IMG/VR virus record: IMGVR_UViG_2870469529_000003
Span: 1-42,569 of that record
DNA length: 42,569 nt
DNA from: a virus
Taxonomy: Duplodnaviria; Heunggongvirae; Uroviricota; Caudoviricetes
Direction: 5' to 3' (one strand)
The translations under genes were made by a program, and so were the position numbers. The notes below the pieces were generated by a model that was not told the origin of the DNA, did not search any database, and saw nothing but the letters and a program-made list of their open reading frames with translations. Numbering within the stretch: the stretch's first letter is position 1; every line of letters starts with the position of its first letter. Below are positions 4,454 to 42,569 of the stretch, one piece after another.

Positions 4454-6382
4454 TTAACTTGTAAAAACATTAACTAGCGTTATCTTTCCGCCTGGACGTT
4501 TATATATATAGCTATATCTATCATTATCCGGGGAAATTATTGTCTGACTGCTGTATTCTATGGCTAACATCGGTGTATTAATAGTGTACTCATTGTCTGC
4601 ATAAATGGCATATGAATCACTTTGTTCTGCCTTAAATACACAAGCAGCACCGATAGTACATCTGGTACTTGGTGATAATGTTCTGATAGCTGCTTTGTTT
4701 TCAGTGCCAGAATCAGAGTTTGTACCCCAGTTATTAAACTCAACTGCATCTATGGTCAATGAGCATTCATCACCCAATACTATTGGATTATTATTTACGC
4801 CTCTAATACTGCCAGCAGAAAATGACATAGATGTAGAATTAGTTGCATTAAGGAAGTTATAGGTACGTCGACTGGGTGTGCTGTATTCTCCCATGCCAAG
4901 TGCATCAAAAGAAGACATAACAAAACCATTAACTTTATCAGCCCTTATAGCTGTCATGTTAGTATTCAATGCGGTTGATGCGTGAACAAAATGAGCGTTA
5001 GATATTTGCACAGATTCTACTTTACGTACTGAGTTTCCGTACAGTGCTAAAATCGGGATAGATACTCCTGAAGTATTAGTTGTCTCACCAATATAAATAT
5101 TACTAAGCGCGGTATTTATATGATTTGTTGAAGTATCTTGTGGCTCTAAAGCTATAGCTCCAATATCATATCCTCCATTGCAAAATATATTGCTAGCTCG
5201 ATTGCCACCGGCTGATAACCTTAATGGGCAGCTTCCTCCGTACACTTCCACAGTGTCTAGAACAGAGTCGCTGTACACACGTATGCCACCTCCCGTTGCA
5301 CGGATTGAGATATCTGATGCATCGGTAGCTTCGCAATAAATATCTCGAAATCTTGCAAGTCCTTGACCGTCATAGATAAACCATGTATTGAATCTCTTGC
5401 CAGTTAACTTCTCGTAATACCACCCAGCACCGCGAGTATGCAGTATGGCGTGATTGCACCTCCACTCCCCGTCGAACTGGATGTTTTTGAACTTAATGCT
5501 GTCCTGGCCATCATTAGACTCACCGGAACTAAAGATAAAGTTCTGATTATCATTTAGTGGTTTTATTACGGTAGTGCCAGTATATGCCTGATTAGCGCCC
5601 TGACCTAAAAATGTCAGGCCTTGGGTATGTCCGGGTATAGTGCAGGGTGACATTCTAAGCTCTCCTTTTGGGAGAATAATGTGTCGCACGCCAGCATCTA
5701 TAGCTCTCAGTATTGCTGGGGTTTGGTCAGCAATATGAACTCCACCACCATAGTTTTCAATGTGATCTGAAACAGGTTCTTTTTTCCAGTTGGTATCTAC
5801 TGTCGGTGTAGTGGGAACCATTGAACCTGGTGTGATTTCCCCCTTGTATGAGTAGTATTCATTATTAAATTTGAATGCCTGTAGCGCAGAGTGCAATGGT
5901 GAATTGCTACCAAAATATCCAGATGGAATAAATGGATGCAAATCATATTGCTGTAATTCAAATAGTTTTATTGCATTATCAAGCGTAGAATCTTCATATC
6001 CAACAAGTGAGGCCCCTTCAGGACCAGATAACTCTTTCCTTAGCTGATCAGGATCATACTTCAGCACATTAGGAAAATAGAACTGCTGTGCACCATACGC
6101 ATCATAAACAGCCATAGAATGGCCTTGCACGGTAACGAATTTGGCAATCTGTCCGTTATATACCGGATAACCAGCAGCGTTAATGATGATTGGTTGAGAA
6201 ACAGGAACGTGAGAGCCGTCTTCGTTCTCCACATAAACCTGAATCTGGTTTTCTGGATTTACCGGATCAGTGTCAATTTTACCGATATAAATTTTACCAT
6301 TGGCTACGGCTTTAAAAGAACGCGCCATAGTGAAGAGTTGCGATGGCATTGATACGATCACATTGGCTGTAATGTCTGTCAT
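4454..6382 (-). CDS. Tailspike protein (P22 gp9-like N-terminal head-binding domain, divergent receptor-binding domain)
   Basis: N-terminus [11 protein letters not shown]...[14 protein letters not shown]...LKYDPDQ matches the P22 tailspike head-binding domain; the remainder is a different beta-helix-type domain. Confidence 0.85.
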
Positions 6383-6439
6383 TTAATTTGCTCCAGATAC
6401 AAGGAATCACCGCAGCATGGCTACGGCAATGCGTCATTG

Positions 6440-6454
6440 AGACCACAGTGGTCT
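6440..6454. promoter_or_regulatory. Candidate Mnt operator, perfect 7-1-7 palindrome AGACCACAGTGGTCT
   Basis: Perfect dyad in the 135-bp gap between tailspike start and mnt start; same architecture as the symmetric P22 Mnt operator. Confidence 0.5.
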
Positions 6455-6517
6455 TATTGTGGATATAACCAGTAGATCATATGATGCCGATCCACTTACA
6501 AAAGTGAGGCATCAAGA

Positions 6518-6769
6518 ATGGGAAGAGATGACCCGCAATTTAATCTGCGGCTACCTTACGAATTAAAGGAAAAACTAAAACAGCGAGCCAAATCCAATGG
6601 CCGCTCTCTTAATTCAGAATTAGTTCAGATAGTGACTGATGCTGTATCAAAGCCATCCAAAATTTCAGGCTATCGAGACGATGCGGAACGCATCGCTGAT
6701 GAGCAGTCTGAACTTGTTAAGAAGATGGTGTTTGATACGCTGAAGGATTTGTACAAAAAACCCACCTGA
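6518..6769 (+). CDS. mnt: Mnt-like ribbon-helix-helix repressor (83 aa)
   Basis: MGRDDPQFNLRLPYELKEKLKQRAKSNGRSLNSELVQIV... is an Arc/Mnt-type RHH; same length and C-terminal tail (DAERIADEQSELVKKMVFDTLKDLYKK) as I recall for P22 Mnt. Confidence 0.8.
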   Translation: MGRDDPQFNLRLPYELKEKLKQRAKSNGRSLNSELVQIVTDAVSKPSKISGYRDDAERIADEQSELVKKMVFDTLKDLYKKPT

Positions 6770-6780
6770 CGGTGGGTTTC
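6750..6780. terminator. Bidirectional terminator hairpin between convergent mnt and the 322-aa gene
   Basis: AAAAAACCCACC-TGAC-GGTGGGTTTCAT: stem flanked by an A-run on one side and T-run on the other. Confidence 0.55.
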
Positions 6781-6784
6781 ATAA

Positions 6785-7753
6785 TTAGATTTCTGGTTTC
6801 ATTCTTCCGAAAACCTTTTCTATTCCTTTTTCGTATTCTTCTCTTGTCTCACTCATCGCTGCGACACCAAGAAGCTTACCGATATGCTGACGCAAAGCCT
6901 TGACACCAATTTCAGAAAGGAACAGATGCAACTTATCAGATTGTTTTCCGTTCTCGTCTCGGCTGGCTCTAATTTGTTCAAGGATTTTACCTTTACTCTT
7001 TGCTAGCGGGGTGTATATCTGCATGTTGGTTAGCTGCCCAAAACGAATAGGCCGTCCTTTCTCTGGCCTATTCAGGCCGTACAGTCGATACCACTCCTCG
7101 TATAGCTCATCTGGAAATTCCTTTTCATATTGACGAGCCTCTTCACGAACAAACGCTTTGAACTCGTCAATGACAGCCTGAACTTCTGGACGATAACCAG
7201 CAAGCGCATACGCAACCCCCTTAATTCCCGCCTTAGCGGAGGCATTAATAAGTCTCTGTGCTGCGGCGGCTGCCTTTAACCGTGATTGTGGTAGATCGTC
7301 ATTATCTTTGGCTTCTATTAGTGCCCTACCAATATCAACAATTGCTGTAATGTCATAACCTAACGCTTGATGAACGGTTTTAGACTTCGAAGTAAGTTGA
7401 AATTTATAGGGATTTTCCATTTTTCGCTGCAATTCTAGATCTCGGTATTTGCTCATATACTGAGCGCCAAGCAGTTGATCTAAATCCCTGGCATGTTCAC
7501 CAATCCCTAGCAACTGAGATAATCCAGTTTTCGTAACAACGACAGTTTTCGACTCGTCATCCAGTACATAACATTCAGCGTCAATGCCAAAATCATCTAA
7601 AAAGTTACCACGATGAGTTGCCCTGAGAATCTTACTTTTCCATCTTGCAGCAGCTGCTTTCTTTGCTATTTCAGAACGCTGCTCTTTAGTCAGCGACTTT
7701 GCGCGAGCGATCCCGCCCTTAGCTTTCCCTTCGCCACTTTTCTTTTCAGTCAT
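6785..7753 (-). CDS. Hypothetical protein (322 aa from MTEKKSG...), basic N-terminal segment, function unknown; occupies the immI/sieA cargo slot
   Basis: Long ORF; plausible start at 7753 preceded by AAAGG; N-terminus GGIARAKSLTKEQRSEIAKKAAAARW looks like a DNA-binding motif; own promoter upstream. Confidence 0.7.
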   Translation of the reverse strand: MTEKKSGEGKAKGGIARAKSLTKEQRSEIAKKAAAARWKSKILRATHRGNFLDDFGIDAECYVLDDESKTVVVTKTGLSQLLGIGEHARDLDQLLGAQYMSKYRDLELQRKMENPYKFQLTSKSKTVHQALGYDITAIVDIGRALIEAKDNDDLPQSRLKAAAAAQRLINASAKAGIKGVAYALAGYRPEVQAVIDEFKAFVREEARQYEKEFPDELYEEWYRLYGLNRPEKGRPIRFGQLTNMQIYTPLAKSKGKILEQIRASRDENGKQSDKLHLFLSEIGVKALRQHIGKLLGVAAMSETREEYEKGIEKVFGRMKPEI

Positions 7754-7754
7754 A

Positions 7755-7844
7755 ATGCAAGCACCTTTGTTGTGATGTATGCTTGCATTATATGCACTGT
7801 ACACACATACAAGCAAGCATAAAACTAAAACAAAATGCTTGCAT
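7755..7844 (-). promoter_or_regulatory. Promoter (-35 TTGCTT, 18-nt spacer, -10 TATAAT) bracketed by two inverted-repeat pairs of the 9-10-bp motif ATGCAAGCA / ATGCTTGCAT
   Basis: Motif copies at ~7755-7763, 7779-7788, 7812-7820 and 7835-7844 in alternating orientation; perfect TATAAT on the minus strand at ~7787-7792. Confidence 0.5.
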
Positions 7845-7909
7845 TACAACCGCGCTACTCCAACTACACATTATCATCTGGTATCCTGCTCAAAACTAAG
7901 GAGGTTGGT

Positions 7910-8098
7910 GTGAAGAAAAAATTTGTAAACGTTGCAAAGTGCGCAATTTTTATATTTTTTATGACCTTTTACGGATTTAGTGCCGGAGAAGGTTTCGATC
8001 GTGATGCCAATGCATTCAGTTTCTTTTGTCTGTCTATAGTGGTCATAATTGTATGGGTGGAGTTAAAGCAAACATTGTTTCATGTGCTAGGGAAATAA
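7910..8098 (+). CDS. Small hydrophobic (probably membrane) protein, 62 aa from a GTG start
   Basis: AGGAGG 5 nt upstream of GTG at 7910; sequence VKKKFVNVAKCAIFIFFMTFYGF...SFFCLSIVVIIVWVEL has two hydrophobic segments; transcribed divergently from the late operon. Confidence 0.4.
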   Translation: MKKKFVNVAKCAIFIFFMTFYGFSAGEGFDRDANAFSFFCLSIVVIIVWVELKQTLFHVLGK

Positions 8099-8115
8099 CC
8101 ATCCATGGCTTTCCG

Positions 8116-10347
8116 TTACTTCTGGTTATCATCACTGTTCATCCAGTACATGATGCCTAGCCTTGATATGGTTTTCTTATCTGATTCTGGAAGTGAGTTG
8201 TAAAACGAGCGCCAAGCAGAAGAGCGTCTTACAGTTGTATCAACGATGCTTTCTGGTGCTTGTTTTACTGCCAGCCTTGCTGCTTTCTGGAATTCTGGTG
8301 AGCTAATTAGCTTTTCTGCAGATTCAATTGATTCAGCGCCGCCCATCGCCCTGATTTTGCTGGCGACTTTTGCCCCAATTTCTGACCCAGCAACAGCACC
8401 TACTGCACTGAACGGTCCTGACACAGTTGAACCAACCGCAGTGCCAATGCGTTGGGCATGGTTAGCAACAAATTCATTTGCCGCAGTGACGCGATTAAAC
8501 CGTTTGACGAACTCGTTTAGTCTTCCTGTAGTTATCTCGTAAGATTTTGCGTCTTTGATAGCCTTTGCGACCTTATATACATCGTTCAGACCTGACATAG
8601 TCTCTTTTGGTAAATGTCGGGCAAGATTGCGCATCTGCCCGTTTGCTAACATGTTTTGATACCAGTCAGCAAACCCTGCAGGATTAAAATCAGCGCCACG
8701 TTTTCCGTTCGAAAGCATATCCCGAAGACCTGTTCCCAGTAGCTCGGTTCTTAGCTTCCTGGACGGCGTGTTTTGCATCAATTCACGAAATCCTTTGGCA
8801 TCGCCTTTCGACATTGCCTGTAGTGCTGTAGTTGCTTTGCGAGAAACATCACCGTTCAGCGTTCTGCCAGTTAGATTAATCATTTGCTCTTCCATGCTTT
8901 TTCGCATCTGAACAAGCCTCTGAGCAACTTCAAAATCACGTAATGCATTTGTCTCTGACAGCGCCGCCTTTTGATCATCGGCGAGCGAACCGTAAAGCCT
9001 CGATAAAGCAGCGCGATCAGCATCTTTATATGGTCCAGAATTCTTATGAAGTGCATCACCAACAAGTCGTCGTTGCTTATTGAGATTTGCATAAGTTAAT
9101 GCGCCGTTCTTGCCTGGATTAACTGCCCGAAAGACTCTCTTTTCAATAGGGTCAAGGTTTTTCATCCCGCCAAGATCTTCTGCCACCTGTTTGAGCATTG
9201 ACCTTGTTGATGGCGCATCAATTTTTGCACCTGCAGGCATCGCCTTTTCAACATTGCGATAAAGCTGGTCGCTTCGTTTCATCAGCGCAGACATTCTTCC
9301 ATTGACCGTATCAATAAACTTGTCGCTCATACCAAGAGCATCTTTTGCACCGGAAACGCGATCAATTATCTCCCCCGCACCCTGTGCTAGCTGCCTGATT
9401 GCTTCATTTTCCTGCACCTGTAGAGCAGAACCCGCACGGGACTTGATTGCTTGCTCAACTGCCTTGTATTGCTCGTTCCCGGAAAAGTGTGAAGGGAGTA
9501 ATGAATCAACATTAAGCCTTTCAGCAGACTCCAGAACTTCAGCCTGAGGATTGATATCTAGTTCATCAAGCGATGAAGCGAGATTTGGCCTTTTTTGTGC
9601 TGCTACTGTGCGAACGACTTCCTCTGGGTTCCTCGTCGCAGGAGTCATTGGTACACCTTGTGCTGCTCTTGCCTCTGCGGCATGAACCGCAGGATTTGTT
9701 GCCTCTGCGGCATCACCGGAGAATGGTGATGTTTCTGTTGGCGCAGTGGTCGCTCTCTGTGCAGATGTTTTATTGCCACTAATTATATTTGATGCACCAC
9801 GAACACCACGGGTAACGCCATTTATCAGGCCATGCGTAGCAATGTTAAGTCCGGCATTAATAGCGGCATTTTCGGCAAAATCACCCCGTTGATTCGCCGC
9901 GTCAGCGAGAGAACCAATGACCATGTTTCCAGCTACACCTGCTCCAGGAACAAGATAACCGCCTATTGACTCTCCAGCTTGCGCATAAGGGTCTGTCGGT
10001 CGATAGACAGGGCGATAAACATCATCCAAAACCTTGGGGCCACCAAGCCCCTGGCTGATTGCATTAATCAGACTTGCGCCACCCTGTAATACGTCAAATG
10101 GTATGTTTACCAGACCACGACCAGCCTGTTCTGCAATTTGCCCTGCACTTTGACCACCAGTGAGCCAATCGCCAGCTTGTTGCATCAATGATGGTTCTTC
10201 CCGTGTTGGTGCATTATTGGCCTGATTAACTGTTTGTTGCTGAACAGCCTGACCAGCAAAATACTCATCAATGGCGGTGCCAATATCTTCCGTGCTCGTA
10301 CCATCAGGGAAGGTAAATGTCTTACCGTTTGCAGTTACTTTCATCAT
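8116..10347 (-). CDS. Ejection (internal virion) protein, P22 gp16-like, 743 aa
   Basis: Position in the P22 gene order (20, 16, cargo, 9) and Ala/Gly/Gln-rich composition typical of E-proteins. Confidence 0.65.
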
Positions 10348-15791: not shown

Positions 15792-17087
15792 TCACGCGGT
15801 CTGGTTAGGCAGACCAACACCAATTGCCTCTGGTCGTACAGCACATGCTGAATACCACACAGCAATACGGCACTTGCCAGACAGAGTGTTGATATCCCCC
15901 TGCGTTGCGAAGATGCCGTTAACACCAATACCTGGAATGCTGAAGGAAGAAGTTTTCATGCCAGCAAACAGTTCATGGGTTACCGGAATCGGCTGAGACA
16001 GCAGGCGGATTGAGTCATCAGCCCAGAACACGTTAGCGGTGGTTGTTGCCACGTTCAGAACGTTTACCGGAGTGGTATCAGCAAGAGAGGTGTTTACGTT
16101 AGCGTAAGCCTTCTCTTCTTTTGTCAGTGACTCGTCATCCAGCGCAATCGGCTTCGGCGTGATTTCGATGTGAGTACCATCGATCACACGGGTGATTGAG
16201 AAAGTCGCATCATCAGTCAGCACGTTCTTCGCCATCTGAGACAGGAATTTCACACCAGTGAAACTGATTTTGTCGCCGCGCTTAAATCCGGTGGTGGAGG
16301 ATACGGTCACCGTTGCAACACGGTTGTCGACGTTCTCTTTGTTACCATCGGTATCAAGGGTGTATGCCTGCGGCTTAAACTTCTGCGCACCAGAAACAGT
16401 TACACCAGTAGCGGCTGACTTGGTAACTGCCGGAAGTTTCGGTGAGCGAAGAATTTCATCAAAGCCAGCAATCTGACGCTGAATAGTACCGTTGCGATAC
16501 GTGTCTTCAGGAACGCGCCCGAAGATGTCACCATCTACCAGGTTGCGGCCTGCTTTGCGGTAATCGTCAGGGTTCAGGAAGTAACTGATGCCCATATCGC
16601 GGTTTAGCTCACGGGAGAACATCAGGCGCTCTGCATCAGACACAAAATCCCAGCCAGACAGGCCAGTAGATGGACCAATTGCTCGGGTATCGTGAACAAC
16701 AAGTGAGCCCATTTCAGTTGCCTGTTTGGCAATTGCTGACTCAATGTTATTCGCCAGTTTTTTAGCTGATGCCTGGATGCGGCGACGGTAAGAACGCTCA
16801 TCACGCAGGTCATCTGCACGAAGCTCGAAGAAATCGTTATCCGGATCGCCCATGTTGCATTTCACGGACAGTTCCAGAATACCGGTAGCGTTGCCAGTTA
16901 AATCCCAGCCAGTCTGAGTTGGCGCTTCCTGCTCAACAGGCATCCACACGGTGTTGCTTGAACGTTGCATGGATTCTGCCGGAGGGGTGTATTTTGTCAC
17001 TTTAGACGCCATTGGCGTCAGGTTCTGGATGGTTTCGATGATTTCATCCAGAGCATACGTGACCAGTTGACCTTCATTTAATGCCAT
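15792..17087 (-). CDS. Major coat protein, P22 gp5-like, 431 aa
   Basis: [27 protein letters not shown]...RADDLRDE...SRELNRDMG... closely matches P22 coat along its length. Confidence 0.9.
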
Positions 17088-26072: not shown

Positions 26073-26359
26073 GGCTTAATCTTCCCCTCCTTCAGCAGTA
26101 TCGCCTGCGTCCTGATCACGCCTTCCAGGTGGTAAAGTCTGGCGTCTTTGTTGTCGAGGTTATGGGTGCGTCGGTCGATTTCATCGTGACACGCGCTACA
26201 AGCCCATGCGCCGATCAGGTCGTCAGGCTTCATTCCCGTTCCGCAAATTCCAGCCATCCGGTAATGTGCCAGAACTGTAGTTTCAGGATTACCATTGCAT
26301 ACGCCGTAAATACGTACCTGGCATTCTCTGCCGCGCGCTTCTTTGCGTAGGTTAGCCAT
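26069..26359 (-). CDS. Cys-rich nin-region protein (DUF1364-like), 96 aa
   Basis: Multiple CxxC-like pairs (CQVRIYGVC, CSAC); typical lambdoid nin-region gene. Confidence 0.55.
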   Translation of the reverse strand: MANLRKEARGRECQVRIYGVCNGNPETTVLAHYRMAGICGTGMKPDDLIGAWACSACHDEIDRRTHNLDNKDARLYHLEGVIRTQAILLKEGKIKP

Positions 26360-27081
26360 TAAGCAGCCTCCCCTGTTACTTTCAGCATTCCGTTATCGAG
26401 CAGCTTTCTGGTCAGCCACTGTTGACCACGCCCGGTGATTTTTGTGGTGAACGATATCTGTATTCCGTGATTTGTGTTGACCGTTGTTTCTTTCACTGTG
26501 AAATAGCCGCGATCCATATATTCCTGCATTGGCACATTGCGCCGGGAACCTGAAGCAATAAGGATTTTGTGATCGCGCATCCACGCAAACAGTTTGTTTG
26601 GACCAATCCCAACAACCTTTGCAAAGTTTCCAATCAAAATTCCGCTGGCCTCGCCAACACGATCGGCAAACTCAACTTTAGGTGCGGCAATTGCGAGCTG
26701 GTTTTCCAGTTGCATTTTCTGCTCAGCAAGGTCAGCAGCAAGGCGCAACGCTTCTGGTAGCGTTTTGGGGATATTAACCGCAGCTTCTTCAAGCTCTCGC
26801 CAACGGTCAACAAGACGAGCGGTGAATTCCGGCGACAACTGAGCGACGACAATGATGCTGTCTCGCTTACCTTGTTCGCCCTCAAAAACGTAAGCCTCTA
26901 CGCCACGAAGTAATCCTAAGTTATTGATTTTTTCGAAAACCACCATTGGGGGATTTCGGATCACACCTCGAGCCGCCAGTCGTTCAATAGATTGTTTCAC
27001 CTTGTCATGACGACTTCCCACCAACTCAGCAATTTCAATGCTTGTCATTTTGATGGCATTGCCATTTATTAACTCATTCAT
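26359..27081 (-). CDS. Rha-family regulatory protein with C-terminal KilAC domain (antirepressor-like), 240 aa
   Basis: N-terminal Rha-like region (MTSIEIAELVGSRHDKV...) and C-terminal KilAC-like region (FAKVVGIGPNKLFAWMRDHK...). Confidence 0.65.
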   Translation of the reverse strand: MNELINGNAIKMTSIEIAELVGSRHDKVKQSIERLAARGVIRNPPMVVFEKINNLGLLRGVEAYVFEGEQGKRDSIIVVAQLSPEFTARLVDRWRELEEAAVNIPKTLPEALRLAADLAEQKMQLENQLAIAAPKVEFADRVGEASGILIGNFAKVVGIGPNKLFAWMRDHKILIASGSRRNVPMQEYMDRGYFTVKETTVNTNHGIQISFTTKITGRGQQWLTRKLLDNGMLKVTGEAA

Positions 27082-41321: not shown

Positions 41322-42569
41322 CTATATTGCTGAAGGTACAGGCGTTTCCATAACTATTTGCTCGCGTTTTTTACTCAAGAAGAAAATGCCAAATAGCAAC
41401 ATCAGGCAGACAATACCCGAAATTGCGAAGAAAACTGTCTGGTAGCCTGCGTGGTCAAAGAGTATCCCAGTCGGCGTTGAAAGCAGCACAATCCCAAGCG
41501 AACTGGCAATTTGAAAACCAATCAGAAAGATCGTCGACGACAGGCGCTTATCAAAGTTTGCCACGCTGTATTTGAAGACGGATATGACACAAAGTGGAAC
41601 CTCAATGGCATGTAACAACTTCACTAATGAAATAATCCAGGGGTTAACGAACAGCGCGCAGGAAAGGATACGCAACGCCATAATCACAACTCCGATAAGT
41701 AATGCATTTTTTGGCCCTACCCGATTCACAAAGAAAGGAATAATCGCCATGCACAGCGCTTCGAGTACCACCTGGAATGAGTTGAGATAACCATACAGGC
41801 GCGTTCCTACATCGTGTGATTCGAATAAACCTGCATAAAAGACAGGAAAAAGTTGTTGATCAAAAATGTTATAGAAAGACCACGTCCCCACAATAAATAT
41901 GACGAAAACCCAGAAGTTTCGATCCTTGAAAACTGCGATAAAATCCTCTTTTTTTACCCCTCCCGCATCTGCCGCTACGCACTGGTGATCCTTATCTTTA
42001 AAACGCATGTTGATCATCATAAATACAGCGCCAAATAGCGAGACCAACCAGAAGTTGATATGGGGACTGATACTAAAAAATATGCCGGCAAAGAACGCGC
42101 CAATAGCATAGCCAAAAGATCCCCAGGCGCGCGCTGTTCCATATTCGAAATGAAAATTTCGCGCCATTTTTTCGGTGAAGCTATCAAGCAAACCGCATCC
42201 CGCCAGATACCCCAGGCCAAAAAATAGCGCCCCCAGAATTAGACCTACAGAAAAATTGCTTTGCAGTAACGGTTCATAAACGTAAATCATAAACGGTCCG
42301 GTCAAGACCAGGATGAAACTCATACACCAGATGAGCGGTTTCTTCAGACCGAGTTTATCCTGAACGATGCCGTAGAACATCATAAATAGAATGCTGGTAA
42401 ACTGGTTGACCGAATAAAGTGTACCTAATTCCGTCCCTGTCAACCCTAGATGTCCTTTCAGCCAAATAGCGTATAACGACCACCACAGCGACCAGGAAAT
42501 AAAAAAGAGAAATGAGTAACTGGATGCAAAACGATAGTACGCATTTCTGAATGGAATATTCAGTGCCAT
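41322..42569 (-). CDS. cscB: Sucrose:H+ symporter, LacY/oligosaccharide-H+ symporter family (MFS), 415 aa; host gene
   Basis: 12-TM MFS protein with clear LacY-like pattern; matches my recollection of CscB. Confidence 0.8.
   Translation of the reverse strand: MALNIPFRNAYYRFASSYSFLFFISWSLWWSLYAIWLKGHLGLTGTELGTLYSVNQFTSILFMMFYGIVQDKLGLKKPLIWCMSFILVLTGPFMIYVYEPLLQSNFSVGLILGALFFGLGYLAGCGLLDSFTEKMARNFHFEYGTARAWGSFGYAIGAFFAGIFFSISPHINFWLVSLFGAVFMMINMRFKDKDHQCVAADAGGVKKEDFIAVFKDRNFWVFVIFIVGTWSFYNIFDQQLFPVFYAGLFESHDVGTRLYGYLNSFQVVLEALCMAIIPFFVNRVGPKNALLIGVVIMALRILSCALFVNPWIISLVKLLHAIEVPLCVISVFKYSVANFDKRLSSTIFLIGFQIASSLGIVLLSTPTGILFDHAGYQTVFFAISGIVCLMLLFGIFFLSKKREQIVMETPVPSAI

What the first reader, a model, noticed from the sequence alone, without database searches (positions are those of the whole stretch)
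6430..6460. Perfect 15-bp palindrome AGACCACAGTGGTCT upstream of mnt: an orphaned Mnt operator left after arc/ant loss
The 7-1-7 dyad sits in the 135-bp gap between the tailspike start (6382, minus) and the mnt start (6518, plus), exactly where P22 places the Mnt operator over Pant. With no ant gene, Mnt may be purely autoregulatory, may gate read-through into tailspike, or may have been co-opted to control the neighbouring cargo.
Basis: partly seen in the sequence, partly recalled or inferred. Interest (0 to 1): 0.5.

Follow-up and report, generated by a model that had tools for sequence, protein, structure and literature searches.

The report
Variant Mnt operator without antirepressor
The palindrome is real and is the binding site of the neighbouring Mnt repressor in an E. 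coli P22-like prophage, a conserved specificity variant of the classic P22 operator that has outlived the antirepressor genes it once controlled; this gene layout is already published and its present job is still unknown.

Summary
The dyad AGACCACAGTGGTCT is at 6440-6454, in the 135-bp gap between tailspike (4454-6382, minus) and mnt (6518-6769, plus). A perfect 7-1-7 dyad alone is not beyond chance (2 in the window, 2.6 expected). Its meaning comes from position and conservation.

It aligns without gaps to the P22 Mnt operator, one base upstream of the -35 of the mnt promoter. It is not the P22 sequence. Loci with P22-type Mnt (DPHFNFR) have GGTCCAC-N-GTGGACC plus arc and ant. Loci with this Mnt (DPQFNLR) have AGACCAC-N-GTGGTCT and no arc or ant.

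About 100 viral-contig loci, phages L, ST64T, ST160 and SE1, and 112 of 5,426 complete E. coli genomes share this second type. Its mnt evolves under purifying selection (dN/dS about 0.1). The Pant equivalent has decayed (TCGGCA-17-TATATC). No second site exists in the prophage.

Best reading: a working operator whose remaining cis target is mnt's own promoter, and possibly leftward transcription into tailspike. What output keeps it selected is inferred, not shown. The mnt-only layout is published (2008, 2020); the operator variant and the selection evidence are modest additions.

The parts
6439..6455 (.). 17-bp Mnt operator, class B (GAGACCAC-A-GTGGTCTT). The perfect 7-1-7 core is 6440-6454 and the centre is 6447.
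   Evidence: Gap-free alignment to the annotated P22 O_mnt. Conserved in 29 haplotypes from 99 loci, with the centre base free to vary.
6457..6462 (+). -35-like hexamer of the mnt promoter (TTGTGG), one base from the operator edge.
   Evidence: Same columns as the annotated P22 Pmnt -35 TTGAGA. The TTG is invariant in class-B loci. Weak by consensus, so the scan did not list it.
6480..6485 (+). -10-like hexamer of the mnt promoter (TATGAT), 17-nt spacer. The predicted start is near 6492, which puts the operator centre at about -45.
   Evidence: Same columns as P22 Pmnt -10 TATCAT. The start site is inferred, not measured.
6462..6467 (-). Decayed equivalent of the Pant -10 (TATATC on the minus strand, with C where the essential last T should be).
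   Evidence: In register with P22 TATATT and L116 TATCTT. It varies among class-B loci as TATATC, TGTATC or TGCATC.
6485..6490 (-). Decayed equivalent of the Pant -35 (TCGGCA on the minus strand).
   Evidence: In register with TTGACA of P22 and L116.
6518..6769 (+). mnt, 83 aa, class B (GRDDPQFNLR...): ribbon-helix-helix N-terminal domain plus Mnt tetramerisation domain.
   Evidence: Pfam PF03869 at 2.8e-22 and PF11423 at 2.2e-18. PDB 1MNT at 2.8e-34 and 1QEY at 3.1e-12. 76% identical to P22 Mnt. dN/dS about 0.10.
6755..6779 (.). Bidirectional intrinsic terminator overlapping the mnt stop codon. It ends mnt transcription and faces late-operon transcription with a U run.
   Evidence: RNA fold of -17.1 kcal/mol, z = -2.85. 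Terminators are annotated at the same spot in phage L and epsilon34.
4454..6382 (-). Tailspike gene (P22 gp9-type head-binding domain with a different receptor-binding part). Its start codon is 57 bp from the operator edge.
   Evidence: Pfam Head_binding at 1.4e-66. 74% identical to the P22 gp9 N-terminus.

Best explanation
The dyad is the working operator of the Mnt repressor encoded 63 bp to its right. It is a second specificity class ('class B', half-site AAGACCAC) of the P22 Mnt operator (half-site AGGTCCAC).

By analogy with P22, an Mnt tetramer places one ribbon-helix-helix dimer on each half-site. The central base pair is not read. In P22 this occupancy covers the start of Pant and shuts off arc and ant, while the divergent mnt promoter (Pmnt) stays active.

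Here arc, sar, ant and the ant terminator are missing and the Pant hexamers have decayed. The only promoter still coupled to the site is therefore Pmnt itself. The operator edge lies one base upstream of the Pmnt -35, and the operator centre is at about -45. So the cis role is autoregulation of mnt. The sign of that regulation is not known.

The bound tetramer also sits 57 bp in front of the tailspike start, in the path of leftward transcription. It may block stray, non-antiterminated transcripts in the lysogen.

Shown: identity of the protein, register, conservation, co-variation, purifying selection, decay of Pant, and absence of other sites. Inferred: binding itself, the autoregulatory effect, and the output that keeps the pair under selection. 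That output could be trans repression of incoming phages whose ant promoter carries a class-B operator, or the tailspike gate.
For: Protein and register:
- The adjacent ORF is Mnt by Pfam and by PDB sequence match.
- The alignment runs dyad (17) - A - TTGnnn - 17 nt - TAnnAT with no gaps across the window, phage L, an E. coli phage, P22, epsilon34, L116 and a third class. The P22 features were taken from its annotation and recovered by the promoter scan.

Co-variation of dyad and Mnt class:
- DPHFNFR goes with GGTCCAC-N-GTGGACC in P22, epsilon34, L127, L128 and 13 viral-contig loci.
- DPQFNLR goes with AGACCAC-N-GTGGTCT in the window and in all 36 phage loci with the perfect 8-1-8 dyad. That set includes proteins only 58-72% identical and with three different C-terminal domains.
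- EEPQINIR goes with TGGTATAAC-C-GTTATACCA in L129.

Selection and conservation:
- dN/dS is about 0.10 among 23 class-B alleles, and mnt was intact in all 36 of those loci.
- The 6+6 core shows only singleton changes in 29 haplotypes. The centre is the only one of 337 sites with all four bases.
- Against 95 E. coli genomes, sequence homology starts exactly at the left edge of the operator (query position 20 = window 6439).

Promoters:
- The Pant equivalent fails the promoter scan, lacks the last T of the -10, and varies between lineages.
- Both promoters are intact in P22 and in the complete class-B module L116.

Other:
- There is only one site in the whole window.
- Genetics quoted in PMC8022706 says phage L lacks a functional P22-type immI. 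That fits a repressor that does not read the P22 operator.
Against: - No binding or expression data exist for any class-B Mnt.
- Pmnt is weak by consensus here (8 of 12 against 10 of 12 in P22) and was not listed by the scan.
- A purely autoregulatory loop has no output, so it cannot by itself explain purifying selection.
- Candidate trans targets are rare. Only one complete class-B mnt-arc-ant module was found (L116/L250, in a non-P22-like tail-fibre context), plus L251, which has arc and a degenerate, class-B-like dyad. None was found in complete E. coli genomes.
- The residue-6 story is not a simple code. Class C and more distant relatives also have Gln at that position but sit next to other dyads.
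- Much of the conservation between operator and ATG could reflect recent common ancestry.
Confidence: 0.6

Rival explanations
1. Mnt still represses a live leftward promoter at the old Pant position, or another promoter overlapping the dyad. That promoter now drives tailspike directly, so the pair is a lysogen-specific switch on tailspike.
For: The operator lies where the Pant start would be, 57 bp from the tailspike ATG, with no terminator between them. PMC2629481 notes that the P22 ant moron affects transcription into the tailspike gene and that Mnt and Arc may take part.
Against: The Pant equivalent is TCGGCA-17-TATATC, with C at the essential last -10 position. In sister lineages it is TGTATC or TGCATC, and these are the most variable positions of the region. 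No promoter-like site on either strand passes a scan that does recover Pant in P22 and L116.
Confidence: 0.15
2. A decaying relic: neither mnt nor the dyad does anything now. They persist only because the deletion of arc and ant is recent.
For: [quoted passage not shown] Both promoters are weaker than in P22. No target gene is evident.
Against: dN/dS is about 0.10, with dS up to 0.5 between alleles. The ORF is intact in all 36 loci with the perfect dyad and in lineages from Salmonella, E. coli and Proteus. The dyad core is kept where the left flank changes.
Confidence: 0.1
3. The dyad acts as RNA, not as a protein site: a hairpin in the late transcript just upstream of tailspike that serves as a pause, processing or termination signal.
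For: On the late strand it folds into a 6-bp hairpin. In the E. coli-type loci, the hairpin plus a T-rich tail scores as terminator-like.
Against: The window haplotype has no T tail. The fold of the leader is no better than shuffles (z = -1.1). The arm sequence changes together with the Mnt class and keeps a fixed distance to Pmnt, which an RNA signal for tailspike would not require.
Confidence: 0.04
4. A chance palindrome.
For: Perfect 7-1-7 dyads occur at the chance rate in this window: 2 seen against 2.6 expected.
Against: Position, register with P22 O_mnt, conservation across about 100 loci, and class-specific co-variation.
Confidence: 0.01

Closest known systems
Phage P22 immI: Mnt repressor and its operator O_mnt over Pant (annotated in BK000583)
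   Same: Homologous repressor (76% identity, both domains). A 17-bp 8-1-8 dyad with an unread centre. The same one-base gap to the Pmnt -35 and the same distance class to the mnt start. The same location between the gene 16 and gene 9 homologues.
   Different: The half-site is AAGACCAC rather than AGGTCCAC, two symmetric changes per half. Mnt has Gln6 and Leu9 rather than His6 and Phe9. arc, sar, ant and the ant terminator are absent. Pant has decayed, so the classical target of repression is gone.
The mnt-only 'ant moron' of ST64T, ST104, Para1 and phage L (Villafane et al. 2008, PMC2629481; phage L genome paper, PMC8022706)
   Same: The same architecture and the same operator class. Phage L carries AAGACCACGGTGGTCTT and an identical Mnt N-terminus. 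mnt is followed by a bidirectional terminator and one unrelated gene.
   Different: The host is E. coli. The companion gene is a P63C-domain ORF instead of orf62. The outermost left base is G and the centre is A. The papers read here describe the gene content but do not mention the operator or its altered sequence.
Complete class-B immI module in IMG/VR contig 2795385501_000005 (L116/L250)
   Same: The same operator, AAGACCACCGTGGTCTT, and the same Mnt strand DPQFNLR.
   Different: It keeps arc and ant with strong Pant (TTGACA-17-TATCTT) and Pmnt. Its Mnt is 103 aa with another C-terminus. It sits among tail-fibre and baseplate genes of a non-P22-like phage.
P22 Arc repressor and its operator
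   Same: The same fold. The DNA-reading strand of this Mnt (PQFNLR) is identical to that of Arc.
   Different: Arc is a 53-aa dimer that binds a 21-bp site between the -35 and -10 hexamers. No such dyad is present here; only a single GTAGAT motif remains, out of register.

Membership tests
P22-type Mnt operator (O_mnt) | Adjacent, divergently placed gene encodes an Mnt-family ribbon-helix-helix repressor with the C-terminal tetramerisation domain | tested here: met
   PF03869 and PF11423. 1MNT at 2.8e-34 and 1QEY at 3.1e-12.
P22-type Mnt operator (O_mnt) | 17-bp dyad, 8-1-8, with a free central base pair | tested here: met
   6439-6455, with 15 of 16 arm positions symmetric and a perfect 7-1-7 core. 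The centre is the only four-allele site among relatives.
P22-type Mnt operator (O_mnt) | Fixed register: the dyad lies one base upstream of the Pmnt -35 | tested here: met
   Gap-free alignment with P22, epsilon34, L116 and L129.
P22-type Mnt operator (O_mnt) | The P22 operator sequence AGGTCCAC-N-GTGGACCT | tested here: not met
   The half-site is AAGACCAC or GAGACCAC, two symmetric differences per half. This is a different specificity class.
P22-type Mnt operator (O_mnt) | Overlaps the start of an active Pant that drives arc and ant | tested here: not met
   No arc or ant. The Pant equivalent is TCGGCA-17-TATATC and does not pass the promoter scan.
P22-type Mnt operator (O_mnt) | Bound by the cognate Mnt tetramer | not testable with these tools
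   Needs a gel-shift or footprint. Only class-level co-variation supports it.
Complete immI region (mnt-arc-sar-ant) | Presence of arc, the sar antisense RNA and ant between mnt and gene 9 | tested here: not met
   tblastn with P22 Arc and Ant finds nothing in the window other than mnt itself. The gap is 135 bp.
mnt-only 'ant moron' (ST64T / ST104 / phage L type) | Lies between the gene 16 and gene 9 homologues, with mnt plus one unrelated gene and no arc, ant or sieA | tested here: met
   The order is gp16-like 8116-10347, P63C ORF 6785-7816, mnt, tailspike. The same layout is found in phage L and ST160 and is described in PMC2629481.

The most novel reading that the evidence does not exclude
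The repressor and operator have been kept as a stand-alone gate directly in front of the tailspike gene. Mnt bound at 6439-6455 would set how much leftward (late or stray) transcription reaches tailspike. A regulator that evolved to control an antirepressor would then control a virion structural gene. Its Arc-like reading strand might also let it do the work of both Arc and Mnt at this promoter.
Probability: 0.12. Interest if true: 0.55.

Novelty: new member of a known kind. Interest (0 to 1): 0.3.

Why it matters
The Mnt and Arc system is a textbook model for DNA recognition by beta-sheets. Here nature provides a matched pair of changes: Mnt His6 to Gln, and operator GGTCC to AGACC. That pair can be compared directly with the published in vitro work on Mnt residue 6.

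The comparative data also bear on a question left open in the phage L genome paper. The lone mnt of L/ST64T-type phages is under purifying selection together with its operator, so it is probably not a decaying remnant. That raises the question of what a repressor without its antirepressor is for, in about 2% of complete E. coli genomes and in many Salmonella phages.

The practical consequence is small. It is a better annotation of a common prophage region and a defined hypothesis for heteroimmunity at immI.

Tried and rejected
2. The search for L116-like complete class-B modules in complete E. coli genomes found only distant ant genes. No place covered 80% or more of the query. No close relative of the L116 Mnt was found in sequenced phages either.
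3. The search for other operators or half-sites in the window found nothing. The best other full-site match has 5 mismatches. Core matches with 3 or fewer mismatches number 8 against 13.4 expected. One of them, at 8032 upstream of the P63C ORF, is judged to be chance.
4. I considered an Arc-operator remnant in the Pmnt spacer. A GTAGAT motif resembles one Arc subsite, but it is 4 nt out of register and has no inverted partner. I rejected it as an operator.
5. I considered 'ATGACGCA' next to the dyad as a relic of the arc start codon (compare L116 ATGAAAGACGCA). It is too short to support.
6. I considered a simple residue-6 recognition code. It is weakened because class C and distant relatives also have Gln6 but sit next to other dyads.
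7. The key experimental papers are not held in the library: Man et al. 2004 (PMC506813), Silbaq et al. 2002 (PMC140065), Man and Stormo 2001 (PMC55749), and Adams et al. 1985 (PMC255003). Statements about their content are from memory. The exception is the sentence in PMC1184061 that one Mnt residue change alters preference mainly at two adjacent operator positions.
8. I checked whether loci with about 290 extra bp between the dyad and tailspike carry a new Mnt-controlled gene. They do not. That stretch is a tailspike replacement that left a 5-codon stub.

Full report
**1. What is in the sequence**

The window is an almost complete P22-like prophage of E. coli. It runs from integrase at 1-1158, through gtr-like genes, tailspike and the virion genes, to the early region, and ends in host lacY at 41322-42569. 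It is 98.9% identical to E. coli strain E189 over 6000-8200.

The local gene order is:
- tailspike, 4454-6382, minus strand (Pfam Head_binding, 1.4e-66);
- a 135-bp gap;
- mnt, 6518-6769, plus strand (Pfam Arc 2.8e-22 and Repressor_Mnt 2.2e-18; PDB 1MNT 2.8e-34; 1QEY 3.1e-12);
- a hairpin terminator overlapping the mnt stop codon;
- a P63C-domain ORF, 6785-7816, minus strand;
- a gp16-like ejection protein, 8116-10347, minus strand.

AGACCACAGTGGTCT lies at 6440-6454.

**2. Is it more than chance?**

Not as a bare palindrome. The window has 2 perfect 7-1-7 dyads and shuffles give 2.6. The case rests on comparison with related sequences.

**3. Register with P22**

The curated P22 record annotates mnt, Pmnt, Pant, the Arc operator and the Mnt operator. 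A simple consensus scan recovers Pant (TTGACA-17-TATATT) and Pmnt (TTGAGA-17-TATCAT) at exactly those coordinates.

I aligned the window, phage L, an E. coli phage, P22, epsilon34, a complete module from IMG/VR (L116) and a third class (L129). No gaps appear from the dyad to the Pmnt -10. The shared pattern is dyad (17 bp), one A, TTGnnn, 17 nt, TAnnAT.

In the window this gives:
- operator 6439-6455;
- Pmnt -35 TTGTGG at 6457-6462;
- Pmnt -10 TATGAT at 6480-6485;
- an inferred start near 6492, so the operator centre is at about -45;
- a GAGG ribosome-binding site at 6506-6509.

**4. A different specificity class**

P22 has AGGTCCAC-C-GTGGACCT. The window has GAGACCAC-A-GTGGTCTT, and phage L has the perfect form AAGACCAC-G-GTGGTCTT.

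Across 85 loci the dyad type follows the Mnt N-terminus:
- ARDDPHFNFR with the P22 dyad. Apart from one small group that has neither the dyad nor arc (L069-L071), these loci carry arc and ant.
- GRDDPQFNLR with the AGACCAC dyad, next to tailspike and without arc or ant.

All 36 phage loci that carry the perfect 8-1-8 class-B dyad encode a DPQFNLR protein. That includes proteins only 58-72% identical and with three unrelated C-terminal domains. A Proteus phage with TQFNLR keeps the promoter-proximal half-site. An E. coli prophage with EEPQINIR has a third dyad, TGGTATAAC-C-GTTATACCA, in the same register.

E. coli prophages whose flanks are about 97-99% identical to the window but which retain arc and ant carry the P22-type Mnt and dyad. 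The cassette as a whole is therefore exchanged between otherwise similar prophages.

Caveat: class C and more distant relatives also have Gln at the position of P22 His6 yet sit next to other dyads. The co-variation is between protein class and site. It is not a one-residue code. A held paper states that one Mnt residue change alters preference mainly at two adjacent operator positions (PMC1184061). The primary papers could not be read.

**5. Relic or functional?**

Among 23 class-B alleles of the 83-aa form, dN/dS is about 0.10. Between the window and the Salmonella alleles dS reaches 0.44-0.52 while dN stays at 0.04-0.05.

In 29 upstream haplotypes from 99 loci, the 6+6 core shows only singleton changes. 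The centre is the only one of 337 aligned sites with all four bases. That is what an unread central pair predicts.

Against 95 of the 112 E. coli genomes that carry this region, BLAST homology begins at query position 20, which is window 6439, the first base of the operator. To the left, identity falls to about 70% and there is an 11-nt indel. Several different left flanks abut the same dyad.

**6. What has decayed**

On the tailspike strand, the Pant equivalent is TCGGCA-17-TATATC in exact register. The last -10 base is C in every class-B mnt-only locus. The two preceding variable positions give TATATC, TGTATC or TGCATC.

No promoter-like site passes the scan in the window or in the E. coli-type locus. 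Both promoters pass in P22 and in the complete class-B module L116, where Pant is TTGACA-17-TATCTT.

Pmnt itself is weaker than in P22, 8 of 12 consensus matches against 10 of 12. It keeps TTG and the A2 and T6 positions of the -10.

**7. Targets**

The window holds no Arc or P22-type Ant homologue. A Rha/KilAC-domain ORF at 26359-27081 has no dyad near it.

The operator is unique in the window. The next best full-site match has 5 mismatches, and core matches with 3 or fewer mismatches are below the chance number.

Complete class-B modules are rare. One was found, in a non-P22-like tail-fibre context. A related locus (L251) has arc and a degenerate dyad. None was found in complete E. coli genomes.

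**8. Mechanism**

The best-supported reading is a live operator for its neighbouring Mnt. The site was inherited from an immI module in which it repressed Pant. It is now coupled only to Pmnt, giving autoregulation of unknown sign. In P22 the stimulation of Pmnt by Mnt is, from my memory of Vershon et al. 1987, indirect through Pant. That route cannot apply here.

The invariant one-base gap to the -35 in all mnt-only lineages, including Proteus and proteins of 60-72% identity, argues for functional coupling to Pmnt.

Autoregulation alone has no selectable output, so there must be one. Two candidates exist:
- Trans repression of incoming phages whose ant promoter carries this operator type.
- Blocking of leftward transcription 57 bp ahead of tailspike. 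PMC2629481 notes that the P22 moron influences read-through into gene 9.

Neither can be decided here.

Phage L lysogens are described as lacking functional P22-type immI (PMC8022706). That agrees with a repressor that does not read the P22 operator.

**9. Rivals**

- A still-active Mnt-controlled tailspike promoter is disfavoured by the decayed and variable -10.
- A functionless relic is disfavoured by dN/dS and by the intact ORFs.
- An RNA hairpin role is disfavoured because the leader fold is no better than shuffles (z = -1.1) and because the arms track the Mnt class. In the E. coli-type flank, however, the dyad plus a T-rich tail does look terminator-like.

**10. Novelty**

The mnt-only arrangement is published for ST64T, ST104, Para1 and phage L. 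The phage L paper explicitly leaves open whether its mnt is a remnant or has a new function.

What this analysis adds:
- the operator variant;
- its class-level co-variation with Mnt;
- evidence for purifying selection;
- the decay of Pant.

This is a new specificity member of a well-known repressor and operator family in a known layout. It is of moderate interest to people who study beta-sheet DNA recognition and prophage immunity.

Noticed in passing
window 6406-6430 (minus-strand RNA): An 11-bp hairpin (AUUGCCGUAGC-CAU-GCUGCGGUGAU) lies in the tailspike leader between the operator and the tailspike ribosome-binding site. A 7-bp core is kept in P22, phage L and the E. coli loci, partly through changes that preserve G.U pairs only on the late strand.
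   Followed up: partly
window 6755-6779: A bidirectional terminator (ACCCACC-TGAC-GGTGGGT) has the mnt stop codon in its loop. It faces late-operon transcription with a run of six U. The consensus terminator scan missed it.
   Followed up: partly
window 26359-27081 (-): An ORF with Rha (weak match) and ANT/KilAC antirepressor domains lies in the nin region. No Mnt-type dyad or half-site is near it.
   Followed up: partly
window 6447 and homologous position in about 80 loci: The central base of the dyad is the only one of 337 aligned sites with all four alleles among 35 class-B haplotypes. This fits an unread centre but may also point to a local mutation hotspot.
   Followed up: partly
window 6470-6477; L125 and L124 equivalents: A CAGTAG(A/G)T motif inside the Pmnt spacer is conserved from E. 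coli and Salmonella to the Proteus and IME10 lineages. It resembles one P22 Arc subsite but is 4 nt out of register. The class-B Mnt strand PQFNLR is identical to that of Arc.
   Followed up: no
window 6475-6478 and 6489-6492: Two GATC (Dam) sites bracket the Pmnt -10 in this haplotype. The E. coli-type haplotype keeps only the second.
   Followed up: no
L002 1702-1716 (E. coli phage vB_EcoP-720R6): In the E. coli-type flank, the dyad followed by CTTTGTTTGA scores as a terminator-like site in the late direction just upstream of tailspike. The window lacks the T-rich tail.
   Followed up: no
L004 (P22) about 16045-16175: A 17-nt direct repeat, TGGCTACGGTGAATTTT, flanks about 110 bp between the ant terminator and gene 9 in P22. 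The E. coli class-A prophages L127 and L128 have a single copy. This suggests an insertion or duplication in P22.
   Followed up: no
L101 6130-6420: In one E. coli lineage the old tailspike start is cut after 5 codons. It is followed by about 290 AT-rich bp and a new tailspike N-terminus, the scar of a tailspike swap.
   Followed up: partly
L093, L105, L112 and others: The constant class-B N-terminal DNA-binding domain of Mnt is joined to at least three unrelated C-terminal domains. This suggests shuffling of the oligomerisation domain. Some contigs carry two Mnt-like genes.
   Followed up: no
L124 2655-2677 (phage IME10 / Sf101): A fourth Mnt type (strand AQFHLR) has only a weak TACC-5-GGTA dyad in the operator register. 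It has a perfect 9-5-9 inverted repeat, ATGCAATCA-TGATG-TGATTGCAT, just upstream.
   Followed up: no
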